From the NCBI RefSeq assembly GCF_056746865.1, contig NZ_CM163382.1: 64,000 nucleotides of DNA; one strand, written 5' to 3'. Position numbers and translations under genes: made by a program. Below are positions 47,487-59,118 of the stretch, in pieces. The notes under the pieces are model-generated. The model saw nothing but the letters and a program-made list of their open reading frames with translations, searched no databases and was not told the origin of the DNA. The stretch's first letter is position 1, and every line of letters starts with the position of its first letter.

Positions 47487-48133
47487 GCCTCTGCTCCGGG
47501 TTTGATCAGCATCAGACCACAGCCGAACGCGCGGCTTTTGCCATACCCCTGGCTCAGACGTTGCAGAAATAACCCGGGATCGGTGACCGTAAGCATCCCC
47601 GTATAATCCACGCTACTGAACTGGATCAGTTGCCGGGAGTTTTCCCGCCACAGTTGCTGTTGTCGGTAGGCATCAACCGAGGTATCCAGCAGTGTAAAAC
47701 CGCTTCTCTCCCCCTGCGCTGCCAGCCAGTCCAGCGCCGCCTGTTGTTGATGCAACCAGACATCACTTCCTTCCGCCTGCCCCCTCACCTGCCGTTTCGC
47801 CTCCATCAGCAGATCGTGGCGCTTGCCCGCTTTACAGATTGTTGGATTCGCCCGCAGGTTGAAACAAAGTTGTTGTCCGGTACGCAGCTCGGGCACAAAT
47901 GACCGGCATTCGATGGTGAACGTTTCACTTTCTGCCGGGCGTTCCTGCGACAGTACAAAAAAGCGAAACGCGCCCTGGAGTTCTTCCCGACGATAAAGAA
48001 ATTGCCTTTCTTTGCCGCCAGGGAAGAGATCCCACAGCCACTGATGCATCACATATTCCCCGCGATCCACCAGATGCAGCAACTGCGCAGGCGAAAGCTG
48101 GCCGGTATGTAAGGTTATTCTTGAGAGGTACAT
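47483..48133 (-). CDS. cas6e: Cas6e (CasE) crRNA endoribonuclease, divergent I-E variant
   Basis: 216 aa from MYLSRITLHTG with RBS GGAGGA; conserved MYLS N-terminus, FNLRANP and C-terminal GKSRAFGCGL. Confidence 0.8.
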
Positions 48134-48837
48134 GGTTCCTCCTTGCTGAGCCACGGCCCCTGATTGACGGTGCGTTCCCCAAACAACCATTGCTGACGAT
48201 TTAAAGGAACATCCCGGCGGCGCAATATTTTGCTCGCGACCAGGCCGTCGTGCTCCCCTTCCCACCAGCATTCATCCTGAAGTTTCGGGAGTGCGATTTT
48301 CAGGTCGTGGAAATGCTCCTGATACTGGTGATATGCGTTACGTAAAACATCAGACGCGTTGCCTTCAAGCAGTAACGGCGCAAGTGGTAATGCCAGCGGA
48401 TGACTTTTTCGCCCCAGATAAAGCGGAAAAACTGGATGGCGTAAACCGCCCTGCAACTGTTCGAGGCTGTAAGGCGCATCGGCTGTTGTTGCCACCGCCA
48501 CCATCCACCAGGCGTCGGTGTAGTAGTCGCGCCGGGAGATAATCGCGCTCAGAAGATCAGGGTCGCTCAACTCTTCGCGACGGCTGAAATAACGCGCTTT
48601 ACGCACCTCTTTTGGCATCTGGATTGTGTGATAATCCCGTGCCCAGCGCGGGTTACGGCTGGCGCAAACCACCAGTGAATAGTGGCGGTTAAACACGTTT
48701 AATCGTTCGGTATCATCACGCCGAATCCCTACCCCGGCAGCCAGCAGCCCCAGCAATGCTGAGCGCGAAGGCAGTTCATGGGTATGACGCACTTCGCCCG
48801 CTCCAAACAAACATTTCTCAACGTCTACTGAAGTCCA
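48115..48837 (-). pseudogene. cas5e: cas5e (casD) lacking its 5-prime end
   Basis: frame reads ...HELPSRSALLGLLAAGVGIRRDD (Cas5 glycine-rich motif) but hits a stop at 48838-48840 with no ATG; upstream is AT-rich island DNA. Confidence 0.65.
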
Positions 48838-48969: not shown

Positions 48970-50184
48970 ATGCTGCTTTCAGACCTTGCTATCAGGCGCG
49001 CGAAGCCGAAAGAAAAGGCTTATACACTCAATGACGGTAACGGGCTTTCGTTACTCATTGAGCCGAACGGCTCGAAAGGGTGGCGACTACGTTACAGATT
49101 TGCAGGAAAGCCCAAAATGTTGTCGTTGGGCGTGTACCCTGATGTGTCTCTGTCTGATGCCAGAGCGGCAAGGGATGAGGCTAAAAGGCTTCTTGCTGGT
49201 GGTATAAATCCAAGTGAGGCCAGAAAAGCTCAAAAGCGAGAACAGGCGAGCAAATTTGGCAATACTTTTGAGGGTATCGCTCGCGAATGGTATGAAAAGC
49301 GGATCGACAGGTGGTCATCGTCATACGCCGAGGAAATGATCGAGACGTTTGAAAAAGACGTTTTTCCGTACATTGGCGGCAGGCCGATCGCAGAAATTAA
49401 GCCAATGGAGTTGCTTGCGGTTCTCTCCCGTCTTAATGACCGTGGGGCGACCGAAAAATTGCGTAAGGTTCGCCAGCGATGCGGCGAGGTGTTCCGGTAC
49501 GCAATCATCACCGGACGCGCTGAATATAACCCCGCACCAGATCTGGCAAGCGCATTTGCTCCACACAAAAAAGAGCATTATGCCTATTTGAAGGCCGACG
49601 AACTGCCGGAATTTTTCCGCGTTCTTAATACGTACACCGGAAGCCAGATCGTCAAGCTGGGTATGCGATTATTGATTCTGACAGGGCTCCGGCCAGGGGA
49701 ATTACGACAGGCAGAATGGCAGGAGATCGATTTTGATAATCGTTTGTGGGAAGTGCCTAAAGAACGAATGAAGATGCGCCGTCCTCATTGTGTGCCGCTT
49801 TCAGAACAGGCGATCGCTATTCTGGAACAGTTAAAACACATGACGGGGCAGTATCAGTTTATTTTCCCTGGTCGAATCCAGCACAGTAAGCCGATGAGTG
49901 AAATGGCGATGAACGTGCTTATTCGTCGTATTGGCTATTCTGGGCGCGTTACTGGTCATGGGTTCCGGCACACGATGAGCACGATTTTACATGAGCAGGG
50001 CTATAACACCGCGTGGATAGAAACGCAGCTTGCACACGTTGATAAGAACTCAATTCGTGGCACGTACAATCATGCGCAATATCTGGACGGGCGGCGCGAG
50101 ATGCTCCAGTGGTACGCCGACTATATGGACTCACTGGAACAGGGCGGCAACGTGGTGCATGGCAAGTTCGGAAAATGTGGATGA
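48970..50184 (+). CDS. int: tyrosine recombinase, P4/CP4-57-type integrase
   Basis: 404 aa from MLLSDLAIRRAK; N-terminal arm-binding-like domain; C-terminal catalytic GHGFRHT and RGTYNHAQY. Confidence 0.9.
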   Translation: MLLSDLAIRRAKPKEKAYTLNDGNGLSLLIEPNGSKGWRLRYRFAGKPKMLSLGVYPDVSLSDARAARDEAKRLLAGGINPSEARKAQKREQASKFGNTFEGIAREWYEKRIDRWSSSYAEEMIETFEKDVFPYIGGRPIAEIKPMELLAVLSRLNDRGATEKLRKVRQRCGEVFRYAIITGRAEYNPAPDLASAFAPHKKEHYAYLKADELPEFFRVLNTYTGSQIVKLGMRLLILTGLRPGELRQAEWQEIDFDNRLWEVPKERMKMRRPHCVPLSEQAIAILEQLKHMTGQYQFIFPGRIQHSKPMSEMAMNVLIRRIGYSGRVTGHGFRHTMSTILHEQGYNTAWIETQLAHVDKNSIRGTYNHAQYLDGRREMLQWYADYMDSLEQGGNVVHGKFGKCG

Positions 50185-50312
50185 CTGGTTGAGTATACAG
50201 TAGTAGACTTTGAGCGACGAAAGAAAAAGCTGTGTCTAGGGTCGCTCCCGAAAAACCGTATACCTCGACGGGCTGGCACAGCCACTACAGTAGAGGACGC
50301 TGAGGTGTGCGT

Positions 50313-51110
50313 ATGATTGATATTCATGCCGAATTAAACGAATACAAAAAAGATTTTATTTCTTTACGTGAATTTCTTGAGGTCGTGCTTAAGGTCGCTG
50401 GTGATGATTATGATGTTTCAGATCTCATAACTTGGATACTCAGGAGAATAAGCGGAGAACATATCCGCCTGTACACAGTAAATGAATTTAAGCTGTTGGA
50501 ATCTTTTTGTAACCCGTATCGGGATGAATTTGATTATGATGTTCTTTATAGAAATCTGGATGCGGTTCGGAAACATGGTTGTTTACCTGGTGAGAGGGAT
50601 GAAAATGGTTTTCTGGTGTCCGGTTATTGGGAAGATCCCGAATTTGAGAACATTGGATTTATAAGGGGTGAAATTTTCGCAATTTTTCCCGATGTCCTTG
50701 ACGCGTTAACGAAGCTGGAAGGCGCTAACTCTTCTGAAAATGACGAGGTACAAGGACGCGATATTGAAAAGAAAGAGTTGCGTACAGAGGATGATTTATT
50801 ATCCCAAATCGCAATGCTGGAAAGAGAAAACGCAGAGTTAAGGGCAAGGATAGAGCAGTTAGAGCAAGAGCGCCCGATACACTTATATAAATACTGGGAT
50901 AAAGACCCATTAGCTAAGGCTATTGAGATTAGAAACAGAGAGTGGGCCAATTACGATCCAGAAAATGATTTTGCCACCAGGGGAAATCAAGAAGCGATAA
51001 CTAGGGAGCTTAAGCAGTGGGGGGCAAGTAATGCTCTTGCAACGCTCATAGAGAGGACTGCCTGCCCTATTAACCGAGACAACAGCCAAAAGAACGCAAA
51101 GCCGGATTAA
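50313..51110 (+). CDS. hypothetical protein (island cargo, unknown function)
   Basis: 265 aa from MIDIHAELNEYKK with RBS gagg; acidic, central coiled-coil-like segment (AMLERENAELRARIEQLEQE); no recognisable motifs. Confidence 0.6.
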   Translation: MIDIHAELNEYKKDFISLREFLEVVLKVAGDDYDVSDLITWILRRISGEHIRLYTVNEFKLLESFCNPYRDEFDYDVLYRNLDAVRKHGCLPGERDENGFLVSGYWEDPEFENIGFIRGEIFAIFPDVLDALTKLEGANSSENDEVQGRDIEKKELRTEDDLLSQIAMLERENAELRARIEQLEQERPIHLYKYWDKDPLAKAIEIRNREWANYDPENDFATRGNQEAITRELKQWGASNALATLIERTACPINRDNSQKNAKPD

Positions 51111-51125
51111 CGCACCATACCGCAT

Positions 51126-51270
51126 ACCCTGAGGGTGATTTACTGTTACCCTGAGGGTATTTTTTTATCTTCCCCGTCAATTTTACCATCACCCTTAGGG
51201 TAGATTTCCTCCCGATTACCATCACCCTTAGGGTTAATTTCCTTCCGGTAACCATTAGGCCTGAGGGTAT
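51126..51270. repeat. five copies of palindrome CCCT(G/T)AGGG within ~33-bp tandem repeats
   Basis: ccctgaggg 51127-51135 and 51149-51157; cccttaggg 51192-51200 and 51225-51233; cctgaggg 51260-51267; 33-bp units at 51184 and 51217. Confidence 0.6.
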
Positions 51271-51337
51271 GAAAATATTCGTTATTTCTGTGCCATGATT
51301 ACCTCGTCAAATTGAGTAGACGTTATGAGGTAAATAG

Positions 51338-51535
51338 ATGTCAAATACGCTTATTCGTTTAACAGAAGTTCAGCGTAGAACTGGATATAGCAAGGCATGG
51401 ATTTATCGCCTTATGGGGCAAGGTAAATTTCCTGCATCAGTTAAAATTGGCTCGCGAGCGATTGCTTTCGTTGAAAGTGAAATTGACGAATGGATCAATC
51501 AGCGTATTGCCGAATCACGCGGAACGGCTGCCTGA
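51338..51535 (+). CDS. alpA: AlpA/Vis-family HTH regulator (excisionase-like)
   Basis: 65 aa MSNTLIRLTEVQRRTGYSKAWIYRLMGQGKFPASVKIGSRAIAFVESEIDEWI; classic AlpA pattern. Confidence 0.8.
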   Translation: MSNTLIRLTEVQRRTGYSKAWIYRLMGQGKFPASVKIGSRAIAFVESEIDEWINQRIAESRGTAA

Positions 51536-54266: not shown

Positions 54267-54569
54267 ATGAAGAAGATTAAATTTACTGGCTTAAATGCCA
54301 GCGGACAGACTCACCCGAAAATCAGGATCGGGGATATTTTCCGGGATAAATATGGTGACAGCGTGGTTATTAATTCCGTGTATGAACGGCACATTACATA
54401 CCGCCGCGCAGGGTACGACTATGACTGTGTGATGCCCGTTCATCAGTTCCGGCGTGATTTTTCACTGGTATGTGCAGCACCACGCAGTAAGCCCACCAGT
54501 AAAGAGAAAGCACGGGCAAATATTCAGGTAATAAAGAACATGATTAACGCATTCAGGGGCAAGAAATGA
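54267..54569 (+). CDS. hypothetical protein
   Basis: 100-aa ORF; stop overlaps start of the 708-aa gene. Confidence 0.5.
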   Translation: MKKIKFTGLNASGQTHPKIRIGDIFRDKYGDSVVINSVYERHITYRRAGYDYDCVMPVHQFRRDFSLVCAAPRSKPTSKEKARANIQVIKNMINAFRGKK

Positions 54570-56692
54570 AACGCGCACCGAATTTAAAGCACCAGCCGAA
54601 AGACAAAATGACGGAGGTGATTATCTTTGCGGGTAGTGATGCCTGGGCACATGCGAAAGAGTGGAGCGAATGGGCCGGAAAGCATATTGCGGCAGATGAT
54701 ACACATCCAGTTATTCTTGGACCGGAACAACTGGCGAGTCTGGCAGACACGCAAATCATCGACAAAGGGCGCTATTACGTGCGCGTTTATCGTGCTGGTG
54801 AAATATCAGAGCAGCACCTTACACAGATAGCGACACTGCTTGCAGTGGCGGGTGTGAAGGAGGCGCGTTGCTACCGCAGCTTTGTTGATCAGCAGCCGGA
54901 GGACTGGACACCGCGCATGGCTGGACTGAAGGATGATGCGGAACGCGGTAACAGTCTGGTGATCAACCTTCCGGCGAAGACAAATTTCACCGGAAATTAT
55001 GATGACGAATTAAAGCCTCGTGTTGAAAGTCGCGTCGATGGTGTTTTCTGGGTAACGCCCAAAGTGGACAAGCAGTCAGGCGAAATTATCCGGCCTGAGA
55101 CGTGGTTATGTTCTCCGCTTGAACTACTGGGAACAGGAACAATCGGCAAAGAGCATTACCGCGTGATGCGCTGGAAAAAACCAGCAAACCATGAGGTCAT
55201 TACAATGGCGGTCCCGTGCGGAGGCATTGGTGACCGTGACGGCTGGCGGTTGCTGAAAGACCACGGCCTTAACGTGACGACCAACGGCAAATACAGGGCT
55301 ATCTTGGCTGACTGGATGCAGTTAAGCGGAAACCATGAGGAATGGCAGTTAAGCACAACAACGGGGTGGCATTTTGGTGCGTACATCATGCCGGATGGTT
55401 CGATCATCGGTGAATCAGAGAAACCCATCCTGTTTACCGGAAAAACTGCCGCTGTTAATGGCTATTCCGTGGCGGGAACAGCGGAGGGCTGGCGCGATAC
55501 CGTGGCACGGCTGGCTGGTGGTAATCCGTCCATGATGCTGGGTGTGGCGGTATCGCTATCTGCACCATTAATCGGGCTGGTGGGTGCTGACGGCTTCGGG
55601 GTTCATCTTTTTGAGCAATCATCAGCAGGTAAAACCACCACACAGAACATTGCATCAAGTTTATGGGGAGAGCCGGACGCGCAACGGCTGACCTGGTACG
55701 GAACGGCGTTAGGTATCGCCAACGAGGCCGAAGCACATAATGACGGGCTGTTACCCCTGGATGAAATAGGCCAGGCCGGAAACGCACGGGAGGTGTCCAC
55801 GTCAGCCTATACGCTGTTTAACGGTTCCGGGAAATTACAGGGGGCGAAGGACGGCGGCAACAGGGAGATAAAACACTGGCGTACGGTGGCAATCAGCACC
55901 GGAGAAATGGACGTTGAAACATTCCTCAAAACGGAAGGGATAAAAATTAAAGCGGGACAGCTTGTCCGTCTGCTTAACGTACCGATGGAAAAGGCCTCGC
56001 AGTTTCACGAATACAGCACCGGAAAGGCGCACGCAGACGCGTTAAAAGATGCCTGGACAGAAAATCACGGGGCGGCAGGTCGTGAGTGGGTTAAATGGCT
56101 GGCAGGCCACCAGCAGGAGGCAAAGGACGCGGTAAGGGCATGTCGCGAGCGGTGGCGCAACCTGATACCGGAGAGCTACGGCGAGCAGGTTCACCGTGTG
56201 GGGGAAAGATTCGCCGTACTGGAGGCCGCGCTTGTGCTTTCCGGTCATGTTACAGGCTGGGATGTTCAGGCGTGCCGTGATGCAGTTCAGCATAACTTTA
56301 ATGCCTGGGTGAAGGAATTCGGCACGGGCAACAGGGAATTTAAACAGATGGTTGAACAGGCTGAGGCGTTTTTGTCGTCGTTCGGGTTCAGTCGATACCT
56401 TCCCTATCCAAACAGCGACGAGCGTGATTTACCGATTAAAGACCTTGCCGGATACAGAAAGGGGAGTATCAGAAACGAAGATGACGAGTTCCGTTTTTAC
56501 ACGTTCCCGCATGTGTTTGAGGGTGAGATAGCACAGGGATTTAATCCGTCTCACTTTGCCCGCGCGTTGAGTGCAGCCGGAATGCTGGAAGCGGGAGGCG
56601 ACCGCCGTTACAAGAAAAAGGCGCTCGGCAGGATTGGCGGGAAGCAACATATTTTTTACGTGCTGATGTTCCAGCCTGAAGCAGAAGATTAA
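54566..56692 (+). CDS. putative replication initiator (primase/helicase-like P-loop protein)
   Basis: 708 aa; Walker-A-like FEQSSAGKTT; directly upstream of iteron cluster and SSB gene. Confidence 0.65.
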   Translation: MKRAPNLKHQPKDKMTEVIIFAGSDAWAHAKEWSEWAGKHIAADDTHPVILGPEQLASLADTQIIDKGRYYVRVYRAGEISEQHLTQIATLLAVAGVKEARCYRSFVDQQPEDWTPRMAGLKDDAERGNSLVINLPAKTNFTGNYDDELKPRVESRVDGVFWVTPKVDKQSGEIIRPETWLCSPLELLGTGTIGKEHYRVMRWKKPANHEVITMAVPCGGIGDRDGWRLLKDHGLNVTTNGKYRAILADWMQLSGNHEEWQLSTTTGWHFGAYIMPDGSIIGESEKPILFTGKTAAVNGYSVAGTAEGWRDTVARLAGGNPSMMLGVAVSLSAPLIGLVGADGFGVHLFEQSSAGKTTTQNIASSLWGEPDAQRLTWYGTALGIANEAEAHNDGLLPLDEIGQAGNAREVSTSAYTLFNGSGKLQGAKDGGNREIKHWRTVAISTGEMDVETFLKTEGIKIKAGQLVRLLNVPMEKASQFHEYSTGKAHADALKDAWTENHGAAGREWVKWLAGHQQEAKDAVRACRERWRNLIPESYGEQVHRVGERFAVLEAALVLSGHVTGWDVQACRDAVQHNFNAWVKEFGTGNREFKQMVEQAEAFLSSFGFSRYLPYPNSDERDLPIKDLAGYRKGSIRNEDDEFRFYTFPHVFEGEIAQGFNPSHFARALSAAGMLEAGGDRRYKKKALGRIGGKQHIFYVLMFQPEAED

Positions 56693-57411: not shown

Positions 57412-57828
57412 CTAACTAGGTGTTTGCTGTTGTTCAATGTATTGGCGGATGATGGATATTGGCGCACCTCCGCAGCTACTGGCAAAATAGCTGGGACTCC
57501 ATAAAACGCCTTTGTAGTAATACCTGACTGCAATATCTGGTCGATCTCGTCGCAATAATCTACTCGATACGCCCTTGAGACTGTTCACCAGGGTGGATAT
57601 CGCCAATTTGGGAGGATAGTTAATTAGCAGGTGAACGTGATCTCGTTCTCCATCCATTTCAACCAGTTCAGCTTCAAAATCAGCACATACACTTGAAAAG
57701 TAAGTGCGTAGTTTTTCTATTGCGTCATGGTCAAAAATCTGGCGTCGGTACTTGGTAACAAAGACCAGGTGAACGTGCATCAGGAAGACACAGTGCCTTC
57801 CACGTCGGATATCGGTTTCTTTTTTCAT
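57412..57828 (-). CDS. tnpA: IS200/IS605 Y1 (HUH) transposase TnpA
   Basis: 138 aa from MKKETDIRRG; HUH motif HVHLL and catalytic Tyr region VLWSPSYFASSCGG. Confidence 0.85.
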   Translation of the reverse strand: MKKETDIRRGRHCVFLMHVHLVFVTKYRRQIFDHDAIEKLRTYFSSVCADFEAELVEMDGERDHVHLLINYPPKLAISTLVNSLKGVSSRLLRRDRPDIAVRYYYKGVLWSPSYFASSCGGAPISIIRQYIEQQQTPS

Positions 57829-57850
57829 AGGCCAAAGTATAATTTGGCAT

Positions 57851-59059
57851 ATGAAACGACTACAAGCTTTCAAATTCCAGTTAAGACCAAATGGAAAACA
57901 GGAGCGTGAAATGAGGCGCTTCGCGGGCGCATGTCGTTTCGTTTTCAATCGTGCTCTGGCGCTTCAGAATGAGAATCATGAGGCCGGGAACAAATATATT
58001 TCTTATGCAAAGATGACTTCCTGGCTGGTTGAATGGAAAAATGCTACTGAAACGCAATGGCTTAAAGATTCTCCCTCACAGCCATTGCAGCAGTCACTGA
58101 AAGACCTTGAGCGAGCCTACAAAAATTTCTTTCAGAAGCGTGCCGCTTTTCCCCGATTCAAAAAGCGGGGACAGCATGATGCATTCCGCTATCCGCAGGG
58201 TGTTAAGCTCGATCAGGAAAACAGCCGTATTTTTCTGCCGAAACTGGGCTGGATGCGCTACCGGAACAGCCGTCAGGTCACGGGTGTTGTGAAAAATGTC
58301 ACTGTCAGCCAGTCCTGCGGTAAGTGGTACATCAGTATTCAGACAGAAAGTGAAGTATCAACTCCGGTTCACCCTTCAGCATTAATGGTCGGGCTGGATG
58401 CTGGCGTGGCTAAACTCGCCACGCTGTCAGATGGCACGGTCTTTGAGCCTGTAAACAGTTTTCATAAAAACCAGAAGAAGCTGGCGAGACTTCAGCGCCA
58501 GTTAAGCCGCAAGGTTAAATTCAGCAACAACTGGCAGAAGCAGAAACGCAAAATACAGCGACTGCATTCCCGTATCGCAAATATCCGCAGGGACTACCTT
58601 CACAAAGTCACAACGACCATCAGCAAAAACCACGCAATGATAGTCATTGAGGATTTGAAGGTCAGCAACATGTCAAAGTCAGCCTCGGGTACGGTCAGCC
58701 AGCCGGGGCGCAATGTCCGGGCAAAATCAGGTTTAAACCGTTCGATACTGGATCAGGGCTGGTATGAAATGCGCCGTCAGCTTGAGTACAAGCAGCTCTG
58801 GTGTGGCGGTCAGGTGCTTGCTGTTCCGCCAGCGTACACAAGCCAGCGTTGCGCGTGCTGTGGTCATACAGCGAAAGAAAATCGCCTGTCACAAAGTCAA
58901 TTCAGATGCCAGGTATGTGGATATACAGCGAACGCCGATGTAAACGGCGCTCGTAACATTTTAGCGGCGGGGCACGCCGTTCTTGCCTGTGGAGGGATGG
59001 TGCAGTCAGGCCGCCCGTTGAAGCAGGAACCCACCGAAATGATTCAGGCGACAGCCTGA
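57851..59059 (+). CDS. tnpB: TnpB (OrfB) RuvC-like RNA-guided nuclease
   Basis: 402 aa; N-terminus [17 protein letters not shown]; RuvC region [15 protein letters not shown]; zinc finger [12 protein letters not shown]...CQVCG; [10 protein letters not shown]. Confidence 0.85.
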
Positions 59060-59118
59060 ACGTAGCAGGAATCCACGTCCTTCAGGGCGTGGAGGATGTC
59101 AAATATCAATGCGACGAC
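58900..59118 (+). ncRNA. predicted TnpB omega-RNA (tnpB 3-prime end, right-end hairpin, flanking guide)
   Basis: inferred from IS200/IS605 architecture only; right-end hairpin 59073-59092; guide would be about 16 nt from 59103. Confidence 0.3.

What the first reader, a model, noticed from the sequence alone, without database searches (positions are those of the whole stretch)
51126..51270. Five CCCT(G/T)AGGG palindromes in ~33-bp tandem repeats upstream of alpA
The 227-bp gap between the cargo gene and alpA holds five copies of a 9-bp palindrome, two of them inside near-identical 33-bp direct repeats (51184-51216, 51217-51249). This looks like a multi-site operator controlling alpA or the island switch.
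Basis: seen in the sequence. Interest (0 to 1): 0.55.

Follow-up and report, generated by a model that had tools for sequence, protein, structure and literature searches.

The report
Phased operator array gating satellite alpA
The repeated palindromes are a real, conserved set of protein-binding sites in front of the master switch gene (alpA) of a phage-parasitic island. They most likely belong to the uncharacterised gene just upstream, which was mislabelled as cargo, so this gives a testable candidate for how such islands in E. coli are kept silent and woken up.

Summary
There are four perfect ACCCT(G/T)AGGGT palindromes and one degenerate promoter-proximal site in the 227-bp gap upstream of alpA. 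Two of the palindromes lie in 33-bp tandem units.

The array is not chance. The same motif recurs 2-6 times in the same gap in homologous islands of E. coli, Salmonella, Citrobacter and Yersinia. Sites sit at fixed distances from the alpA start and are spaced by whole helical turns (about 22, 33, 43 and 55 bp).

The "cargo" gene (here called X) is a conserved core gene that always sits int–X–alpA. It has a variable N-terminal part, a leucine-zipper-like helix and a conserved 70-residue C-terminal three-helix domain. It has no Pfam, PHROG or NCBIfam family.

The motif changes with the subtype of that C-terminal domain. It does not change with AlpA, the integrase, AntA or the YlcI/YnfO proteins.

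Best reading: the palindromes are operators for dimeric X and gate a conserved extended −10 alpA promoter. I think X is most likely a repressor relieved by the helper phage, but an activator role is not excluded. No binding was tested.

The proposed binders (AlpA, RHH-like proteins) are not.

I rate this a new variant of a known kind, interest about 0.6.

The parts
48970..50184 (+). Tyrosine integrase of the island (P4/PICI type)
   Evidence: ORF. Annotated as integrase in the identical island of strain SCU-105 (L001). Pfam Arm-DNA-bind_3, Phage_int_M and Phage_integrase on homologues.
50229..50296 (+). Rfam RF02996 'int-alpA RNA' motif, forming the 5' leader of gene X
   Evidence: 46.9 bits against a gathering score of 35.8. 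The same motif lies just upstream of X in 15 of 20 diverse loci.
50313..51110 (+). It has an N-terminal α/β part (aa 1-138), a disordered linker, a long leucine-zipper-like helix (aa 159-186) and a conserved three-helix C-terminal domain (aa ~188-256).
   Evidence: Always syntenic as int–X–alpA. Alignment. AF2 models. No Pfam, PHROG or NCBIfam hit.
51126..51136 (.). Operator O1, ACCCTGAGGGT, centre about −175 from the predicted start
51148..51158 (.). Operator O2, ACCCTGAGGGT, centre about −153, followed by a T7 run
51183..51248 (+). Two 33-bp tandem units (51183-51215 and 51216-51248). Each holds a triple half-site, ACCAT-C-ACCCT-T-AGGGT. Copy number is 1-4 in other E. coli strains.
51191..51201 (.). 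Operator O3, ACCCTTAGGGT, centre about −110
51224..51234 (.). Operator O4, ACCCTTAGGGT, centre about −77. This position (−108/−109 from the ATG) is conserved across loci.
51250..51269 (.). Promoter-proximal composite operator O5, AACCATTAGG·CCTGAGGGTA. The right 11-mer is centred at 51263, about −43. In other islands this is a perfect 18-20-bp palindrome, TACCCTnAGG·CCTnAGGGTA.
51291..51299 (+). Predicted extended −10 promoter of alpA, TGcCATGAT, with no recognisable −35. The predicted start is G at 51306.
   Evidence: TG, the A at hexamer position 2 and the T at position 6 are invariant or nearly so in 20 diverged leaders. The consensus scan found no −35/−10 pair. The start site is inferred, not measured.
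51302..51330 (+). Leader inverted repeat, CCTCGTCA (51302-51309) and TTATGAGG (51323-51330). The 3' arm holds the alpA Shine-Dalgarno sequence GAGG (51327-51330).
51338..51535 (+). alpA (65 aa, Phage_AlpA/excisionase family), first gene of the rightward island operon
   Evidence: PHROG 2790/66 hits, Pfam PF05930 on homologues, RefSeq annotation

Best explanation
The palindromes are an operator array for the product of the gene immediately upstream (X, 50313-51110).

X would dimerise through its leucine-zipper-like helix. Its conserved C-terminal three-helix domain would read ACCCT half-sites. Dimers bound at five sites on one face of the helix would act together.

The promoter-proximal composite site (about −56 to −37) abuts the position of the missing −35 of a conserved extended −10 alpA promoter. 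I propose that bound X keeps this promoter shut in the resting island. A helper-phage signal, sensed through the variable N-terminal part of X, would release it. AlpA, the known activator of excision and replication in Gram-negative phage-inducible islands, would then be made.

Shown by the data: the sites are real, conserved, phased and fixed in position; they pair with the subtype of X's C-terminal domain and with no other island protein; and a −10 element is conserved.

Inferred: that X binds DNA, the transcription start, the sign of regulation (repression), and the phage trigger.
For: - Enrichment: 4 sites against 0.49 expected in the window. Perfect 11-bp palindromes occur at 9.5 per kb in the X–alpA gaps of 54 distinct loci against 1.1 per kb elsewhere, and almost all are this one motif. 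Only 1 site with at most one mismatch occurs in 330 kb outside the gaps.
- Conservation despite diverged flanks, in E. coli, Salmonella, Citrobacter and Yersinia islands.
- Fixed registers at −75, −108/9, −151, −174 and −206 from the alpA ATG. Spacings cluster at 21-24, 31-34, 42-44 and 54-56 bp (Rayleigh p about 1e-14 at period 10.8).
- The 33-bp unit (three helical turns) varies from 1 to 4 copies without breaking the phase.
- Pairing with X's C-terminal domain. 31 gaps with the TR(G/A)NQ-type domain average 3.5 ACCCTnAGGGT sites. 11 NAPKA-type gaps have none and carry CTATCA-type palindromes instead. 5 TAPT-type gaps have none and carry AATGGTGG-type half-sites.
- The TAPT-type loci L090 and L091 still share the −10, the leader and the AlpA type of the main group.
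- The N-terminal part of X is exchanged (35-63% identity) while the C-terminal domain and the sites stay the same.
- Pairs of perfect sites in 2.9 million viral contigs: 35 of 47 stretches lie next to an X C-terminal domain. One more is the continuation of such a contig. The remaining 11 show no X domain and, where inspected, are unrelated high-GC or giant-virus repeats.
- Background: AlpA is the helper-induced activator of such islands, and its overexpression is toxic (PMC6092414, PMC11773190).
Against: - X and the sites are adjacent, so they would be inherited together even without any interaction. The pairing is therefore suggestive and not decisive.
- One locus (L010) has a changed TKPKS loop but keeps the ACCCT motif, so no specificity residues can be named.
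- All sites lie upstream of the −35 position and the proximal one is centred near −43. That geometry is typical of class II activators, so the sign could be activation.
- The promoter and start site are predictions. The tool's σ70 scan found nothing.
- Characterised islands of this kind (EcCIMP1) work without X or palindromes.
Confidence: 0.45

Rival explanations
1. Same cassette, opposite sign. X is a phage-responsive activator. Dimers on the phased sites recruit RNA polymerase to a weak alpA promoter that lacks a −35, once the N-terminal part senses the helper.
For: The proximal site is centred at about −43 and abuts the −35 position. No site overlaps −10 or +1. In characterised islands PalpA is off by default and switched on by the helper and by AlpA (PMC6092414, PMC11773190).
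Against: Extended −10 promoters usually work without an activator, and the TG and −10 key bases are strictly conserved. A resting island needs something to hold alpA off. A swappable sensor part fused to a constant DNA-binding part resembles satellite repressors such as Stl.
Confidence: 0.22
2. The palindromes are AlpA's own autoregulatory or excision sites.
For: AlpA activates its own promoter in EcCICFT073 and EcCIMP1 (PMC6092414, PMC11773190). AlpA is an Xis/MerR-like DNA binder.
Against: Islands L006, L007 and L087 encode an AlpA that is 62/65 identical to the window's and identical across residues 5-64. Their gaps contain no ACCCTnAGGGT. L090 and L091 share the leader and promoter but carry a different repeat motif. 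Conversely, diverged AlpA alleles (L011, L012, L016) keep the motif. Palindromes suit dimers, whereas Xis-type proteins usually bind direct repeats (background knowledge).
Confidence: 0.1
3. The sites are bound by a helper-phage or host regulator and not by X, for example a phage activator that induces alpA. X would be an unrelated neighbour.
For: Helper phages induce alpA transcription in related islands by an unknown factor (PMC6092414). The adjacency of X and the sites could be mere linkage.
Against: The motif differs between islands living in the same species (ACCCT type against AATGGTGG type in E. coli), so a single host factor is unlikely. There is no match of the gap or of X in 50,697 phage genomes. 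The viral-contig stretches with site pairs that lack X showed nothing coliphage-like where inspected.
Confidence: 0.1
4. The palindromes are RNA or DNA structures without a dedicated protein, such as intrinsic terminators of X. Alternatively they are recombination or replication sites (integrase arm sites, iterons).
For: O2 is followed by T7 and scores as a weak terminator. The 33-bp units are tandem direct repeats.
Against: The stem has only 5 pairs. The T run is not conserved in other loci. Helical phasing and fixed distance to alpA are not terminator properties. The sites are 2.3 kb from the att core at 48793-48805. They are 3.3 kb upstream of the primase gene, and the motif is absent from the rest of the island.
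Confidence: 0.05

Closest known systems
Stl master repressor and its operators in Staphylococcus aureus pathogenicity islands (SaPIs)
   Same: Both are satellite-encoded regulators with a constant DNA-binding part and a highly variable part. Both have several binding sites in the intergenic region in front of the excision and replication genes. Helper-phage dependence is shown for SaPIs and only proposed here.
   Different: There is no sequence or detectable fold relationship. Domain order is reversed, with the variable part N-terminal here. The regulator is co-directional with its target instead of divergent. The target is the activator gene alpA. The sign and the inducer are unknown.
PalpA control in characterised Gram-negative phage-inducible islands (EcCICFT073, EcCIMP1)
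   Same: Same island type: int, alpA, AntA/Bro genes, DUF927 primase and a PerC-like gene. In both, alpA is the first gene of the rightward operon and acts as the master activator.
   Different: EcCIMP1 has no X gene and no ACCCT palindromes in its 427-bp int–alpA gap. No operator or repressor has been described for these islands in the papers I could search.
Cooperative multi-operator arrays of temperate phage repressors (λ CI at OR/OL, 186 CI, P22 c2)
   Same: Both have dimer-sized palindromes repeated on one helical face next to a promoter, with auxiliary distal sites.
   Different: The half-site (ACCCT, 1-bp spacer) and the protein family differ. All sites lie upstream of the −35 position. 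Many sites carry a third, directly repeated half-site.
Rfam RF02996 int-alpA RNA motif
   Same: It occupies the same int–alpA interval and co-occurs with X in 15 of 20 loci.
   Different: It lies at 50229-50296, upstream of X, and not in the palindrome region. No Rfam family matches 51111-51337.
AlpA/IntA of cryptic prophage CP4-57 and Vis of satellite P4
   Same: The small AlpA-family protein lies next to an integrase.
   Different: The window AlpA is 33% identical to K-12 AlpA. The CP4-57 neighbour yfjH is divergent in orientation and unrelated to X.

Membership tests
Operator array of a linked transcription regulator | The motif is over-represented and confined to one regulatory gap | tested here: met
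   4 against 0.49 expected. 9.5 against 1.1 palindromes per kb. 1 stray site in 330 kb.
Operator array of a linked transcription regulator | The array is conserved in homologous elements while the flanks diverge | tested here: met
Operator array of a linked transcription regulator | Sites show helical phasing and a fixed position relative to the promoter or gene start | tested here: met
   Spacings are about 2, 3, 4 and 5 turns. Registers are at −75, −108, −151, −174 and −206. A conserved extended −10 lies 21 bp downstream of the last site.
Operator array of a linked transcription regulator | The motif changes together with the regulator's DNA-binding domain | tested here: met
   Four C-terminal-domain subtypes go with four motif types. 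Caveat: physical linkage, and one exception-like locus, L010.
Operator array of a linked transcription regulator | The protein binds the sites directly and affects transcription | not testable with these tools
   This needs EMSA or footprinting and reporter assays.
AlpA autoregulatory or excisionase sites | The sites follow the AlpA allele | tested here: not met
   An AlpA identical over residues 5-64 occurs with a gap free of the motif. Diverged AlpA alleles occur with the motif.
Operators of the YlcI/YnfO (RHH-like) proteins at 53.1-53.6 kb | The sites follow the protein | tested here: not met
   The protein is 89% identical between the motif-less L007 and the motif-bearing L002. It is 35-40% identical among motif-bearing islands. 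No such gene lies within 3 kb in L008.
Intrinsic terminator | A stable GC-rich stem-loop followed by a U tract, conserved across loci | tested here: not met
   The stems have 5 pairs. Only O2 has a T7 run, and the T run is not conserved.
Integrase arm-type sites / attP | Sites lie within a few hundred bp of the att core | tested here: not met
   The core is at 48793-48805. The palindromes lie 2.3 kb away.
Replication-origin iterons | Direct repeats next to, or downstream of, the replication gene | tested here: not met
   The primase gene is at 54566-56692. The motif is absent from the rest of the window at up to 2 mismatches, apart from two isolated chance-level hits far away.
SaPI Stl-type master repressor | Homology to Stl or to CI-like HTH repressors | tested here: not met
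   No Pfam, PHROG, NCBIfam or PDB sequence hit. Fold hits are weak and generic.
SaPI Stl-type master repressor | Derepression by direct binding of a helper-phage protein | not testable with these tools
   This needs genetics or biochemistry.
Gram-negative phage-inducible chromosomal island (PICI) | int, alpA and a primase-replicase in one orientation at a tRNA-type att site, without phage structural genes in the core | tested here: met
   Annotation of the identical island L001. ORFs. Helper-dependent mobilisation was not tested.
Any Rfam RNA family covering the palindromes | A covariance-model match in 51111-51337 | tested here: not met
   There is no match at E of 0.1 or better. The only nearby hit is RF02996 at 50229-50296.

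The most novel reading that the evidence does not exclude
X founds an undescribed family of satellite master regulators. A new three-helix DNA-binding domain reads phased ACCCT operators. It is fused, or in many islands split, to exchangeable sensor modules, some ending in a copy of the SSB C-terminal tail. It is preceded by the orphan 'int-alpA' RNA motif. Under this reading X would be the missing repressor or sensor that couples a large class of AlpA-type Gram-negative phage satellites to their helper phages.
Probability: 0.35. Interest if true: 0.78.

Novelty: new variant of a known kind. Interest (0 to 1): 0.6.

Why it matters
In Gram-negative phage-inducible islands, alpA is known to be the helper-induced master switch. 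What holds it off, and what the helper acts on, has remained open: the 2018 description states that a global repressor is unclear and the inducer unidentified (PMC6092414).

This locus offers a concrete cis element and a concrete candidate protein for a widespread subset of these islands. That subset includes 147-161 of 5,426 complete E. coli genomes, plus Salmonella, Citrobacter, Yersinia and, judging by sequence similarity alone, probably Pasteurellaceae relatives.

The predictions are simple to test with EMSA, ΔX, operator mutants and domain swaps.

It also gives a likely role to an orphan protein family and a genomic context to an orphan Rfam motif. It corrects the annotation of a "cargo" gene that might otherwise be scored as a defence or accessory gene.

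Tried and rejected
- AlpA as binder: rejected on allele comparison.
- YlcI/YnfO RHH-like proteins as binder: rejected.
- Terminator, att arm sites and iterons: rejected on position and conservation.
- Helper-phage mimicry: no match of X or the gap in 50,697 phage genomes. A paired-site scan of viral contigs returned mostly X-linked loci.
- A genome-contig scan with the C-terminal-domain profile found nothing.
- A guess at the EcCICFT073 coordinates in CFT073 landed on a lambdoid prophage and was dropped, so I could not check whether EcCICFT073 has X.
- CP4-57 yfjH was checked as a possible X analogue and is unrelated.
- The Pseudomonas AlpA antiterminator and its GGGACG element are a different, larger protein and an unrelated site.
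- An alternative σ70 promoter (−35 TAACCA, −10 GAAAAT) that would put the composite site in the spacer was considered. It is not conserved across loci, unlike the TGn-nAnnAT element.
- My first register for the leader hairpin was 2 columns off. The slid control showed the correct one.

Full report
**1. What is in the sequence**

The window is E. coli DNA. The finding lies in a phage-satellite-type island with this gene order:
- integrase (48970-50184)
- a 265-codon gene, here called X (50313-51110)
- a 227-bp gap
- alpA (51338-51535)
- antA/antB-like and BRO-N genes
- two small minus-strand YlcI/YnfO-like genes
- an Icd-like gene, DUF4222 and a DUF927 primase (54566-56692)
- ssb, ProQ/FinO and PerC-like genes

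The gap holds four perfect ACCCT(G/T)AGGGT palindromes. Their 9-mer cores are at 51127, 51149, 51192 and 51225. Shuffles expect 0.49 copies in 64 kb, and none of 100 reached four.

A fifth, degenerate copy lies at 51258-51268 (GGCCTGAGGGT). Two 33-bp tandem units (51183-51215 and 51216-51248, 88% identical) each carry one palindrome.

**2. The array is conserved, positioned and phased**

The 551-bp region occurs in 161 of 5,426 complete E. coli genomes. The 33-bp unit is present in 1, 2, 3 or 4 copies in different strains. It is a copy-number polymorphism of exactly three helical turns.

In a diverged relative (L005) the flanks have changed but three ACCCTnAGGGT sites remain.

I collected more distant homologues of X from two sources: genomes of Salmonella, Citrobacter and Yersinia, and 65 IMG/VR contigs. 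Every X–alpA gap carries several palindromes.

Over 54 distinct gaps:
- Perfect 11-bp palindromes occur at 9.5 per kb against 1.1 per kb in the rest of the same loci, and nearly all are this one motif.
- Only one site with at most one mismatch is found in 330 kb outside the gaps.
- Sites occupy fixed registers relative to the alpA start codon: −75, −108/−109, −151, −174 and −206.
- Centre-to-centre spacings fall into four classes, 21-24, 31-34, 42-44 and 54-56 bp, with a few outliers at 26 and 29 bp (Rayleigh p about 1e-14 at a 10.8-bp period).

In the window the spacings are 22, 43, 33 and 34 bp.

Many sites carry a third, directly repeated half-site (ACCCTnACCCTnAGGGT). In the window this appears as ACCAT-C-ACCCT-T-AGGGT inside each 33-bp unit.

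The promoter-proximal element is a composite. In several islands it is a perfect 18-20-bp palindrome, TACCCTnAGG·CCTnAGGGTA. In the window it reads AACCATTAGG·CCTGAGGGTA (51250-51269).

**3. The promoter**

The simple σ70 scan finds nothing. Twenty diverged leaders do share TGn-nAnnAT: the TG, the A at hexamer position 2 and the T at position 6 are invariant or nearly so.

That is the signature of an extended −10 promoter. In the window it is TGcCATGAT, 51291-51299. The inferred start is the invariant G at 51306.

On that numbering the proximal 11-mer is centred near −43. The composite site spans about −56 to −37. The other sites are centred near −77, −110, −153 and −175. These positions are inferences and no start site was measured.

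**4. Who binds?**

*AlpA.* The AlpA of islands L006 and L007 differs from the window's at 3 of 65 residues. All three lie at the extreme ends. Yet their gap has no ACCCT palindrome at all. Conversely, clearly different AlpA alleles (L011, L012, L016) keep the motif.

*Integrase and AntA.* Neither follows the motif.

They are only 35-40% identical among motif-bearing islands.

*X.* What does follow the motif is the C-terminal domain of X.

X is not cargo. It is always found as int–X–alpA. It has three parts:
- a variable N-terminal part
- a long leucine-zipper-like helix
- a conserved domain of about 70 residues with three helices, consensus ERPI.L..Y.DDPLYLAIEIRNREWANYDP.NDRATRGNQ.AI..EL...G.....A..IE.VACPI.R

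Grouping gaps by domain subtype gives the following:

| C-terminal domain subtype | Distinct gaps | Mean ACCCTnAGGGT sites | Motif found instead |
|---|---|---|---|
| TR(G/A)NQ | 31 | 3.5 | none; this is the main type |
| T(I/V)PSQ | 8 | 2.0 | also ACCCTnATAGT hybrids |
| NAPKA (Pasteurellaceae-like by sequence; taxonomy not checked) | 11 | 0 | CTATCATAG-type palindromes |
| TAPT(E/K) | 5 | 0 | AAT(G/A)GTGG half-sites in both orientations |

Two TAPT-type loci (L090, L091) retain the same −10, leader and AlpA type as the main group. The repeat motif therefore changes with the X domain and not with the promoter or AlpA.

Within the main group, the N-terminal part of X is swapped (35-63% identity) while the C-terminal domain and the operators stay constant.

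*Host or phage factors.* A single host factor is unlikely because both motif types occur in E. coli. A phage factor is not supported:
- X and the gap have no match in 50,697 phage genomes.
- Of 47 viral-contig stretches with two perfect sites 9-35 bp apart, 35 lie next to an X C-terminal domain.
- One further stretch is the continuation of such a contig.
- The remaining 11 show no X domain and, where inspected, are high-GC or giant-virus repeats.

**5. What X is**

- No Pfam, PHROG, NCBIfam or PDB sequence relative was found beyond coiled-coil noise.
- The C-terminal-domain profile finds only 201 cluster representatives among 1.84 billion. The domain is almost always at the C-terminus.
- None of the 124 members scanned has a known DNA-binding domain elsewhere.
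- This is compatible with DNA binding but does not prove it.
- Foldseek against AFDB50 returns only 'uncharacterized protein'.

**6. Mechanism proposed**

Dimeric X binds the phased ACCCT operators and controls the extended −10 alpA promoter.

I favour repression relieved by a helper-phage signal acting on the exchangeable N-terminal part, for these reasons:
- Extended −10 promoters normally need no activator.
- A resting island must keep alpA off, since AlpA overproduction triggers uncontrolled replication and toxicity in EcCICFT073 (PMC6092414).
- X lies outside the AlpA-driven operon, next to int.
- A constant DNA-binding part fused to a variable part is how the staphylococcal Stl repressors are built.

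The main counter-argument is geometry. All sites are upstream of the −35 position and the proximal one sits near −43, as for class II activators. So an activator role is a serious rival.

My confidence is about 0.65-0.7 that X is the binder, and about 0.45 for the whole repressor statement.

**7. Relation to known systems**

The island is of the Gram-negative phage-inducible type. For that type, AlpA autoactivation and helper induction are published, but no operator or repressor is (PMC6092414, PMC11773190, PMC10111431; searches).

The characterised island EcCIMP1 has neither X nor the palindromes. The X cassette is therefore a variant regulatory design used by a subset of these islands. I could not locate EcCICFT073 to check it.

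No Rfam family covers the palindromes.

**8. Seen in passing**

- The Rfam orphan motif 'int-alpA RNA' (RF02996) lies at 50229-50296, 16 nt upstream of X. It accompanies X in 15 of 20 loci.
- In many relatives X is split into two genes, and the N-terminal one ends in ...PPMDFDDDIPF. From background knowledge, this is the C-terminal tail sequence of E. coli SSB.
- The alpA leader has an inverted repeat whose 3' arm holds the Shine-Dalgarno sequence.
  - A read-through transcript from X would sequester that sequence (consensus −14.7 kcal/mol, z −4; the window copy is weaker at −9.5, z 0.1).
  - A transcript starting at 51306 would not.
  - This would shield alpA from upstream transcription, in the manner of IS10 fold-back inhibition. 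There are no compensatory changes, so this remains a hypothesis.
- The island's left junction (att core TTCGCCCGCTCCA, 48793-48805) lies inside cas5e instead of the usual tRNA-Gly. It interrupts a type I-E CRISPR-Cas operon. Only one of 5,426 genomes shows a comparable junction.

Noticed in passing
window 50229-50296 (+): The Rfam RF02996 'int-alpA RNA' motif (46.9 bits) lies 16 nt upstream of the X start codon. The same motif precedes X, or its split N-terminal gene, in 15 of 20 diverse loci. It is absent from L006, L090, L017, L050 and the X-less EcCIMP1. This suggests that this orphan RNA is the leader of X.
   Followed up: partly
L040 1926-2246, L042 1919-2248, L044 1279-1728, L046 1926-2246, L054 1796-2248, L058 1593-1943: In many related islands X is split into two adjacent genes. 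The N-terminal one ends in ...PPMDFDDDIPF, identical to the C-terminal protein-interaction tail of E. coli SSB (background knowledge). This points to mimicry of SSB-partner binding.
   Followed up: no
window 51302-51309 and 51323-51330: A conserved inverted repeat lies in the alpA leader (CCTCGTCA / TTATGAGG), and its 3' arm contains the Shine-Dalgarno sequence GAGG. Transcripts reading through from X could sequester the ribosome-binding site. Transcripts starting at the predicted start (51306) would lack the 5' arm. At the correct register 96% of cells pair, with G·U changes but no double compensations.
   Followed up: partly
window 48115-48810 (−) and 48793-48805: The island's left att core (TTCGCCCGCTCCA, identical to the 3' end of tRNA-Gly in strain SCU-105) lies inside cas5e. 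This removes about the first 18 codons of cas5e and splits a type I-E CRISPR-Cas operon. Only 1 of 5,426 complete E. coli genomes shows a comparable cas5e–integrase junction. The right end of the island is beyond the window.
   Followed up: partly
window 51183-51248; L003, L002, L004: The 33-bp operator unit varies in copy number among E. coli strains: 1 in O104:H4, 2 here, 3 in U90 and 4 in ISHS7. It always changes by whole 33-bp steps, that is three helical turns.
   Followed up: yes
window 57412-59059: An IS200/IS605-type pair, tnpA-like (57412-57948, −) and tnpB-like (57851-59059, +), is inserted in the island downstream of ssb. Weak sub-threshold Rfam hits (HgcC, RAGATH-18) lie at 58986-59115, at the 3' end of the tnpB-like gene.
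   Followed up: no
L002 and L026 (equivalent to window 51296): The 3-copy operator variant carries a T-to-G change in the predicted −10 hexamer (CATGAT to CAGGAT).
   Followed up: no
L005, L013, L015, L016, L040, L044, L056, L067, L084: Related islands carry C4 antisense RNA and isrK (P1/P7-type immunity RNAs) downstream of the AntA/Bro genes. No such hit was found in the window's island at E of 0.1 or better.
   Followed up: no
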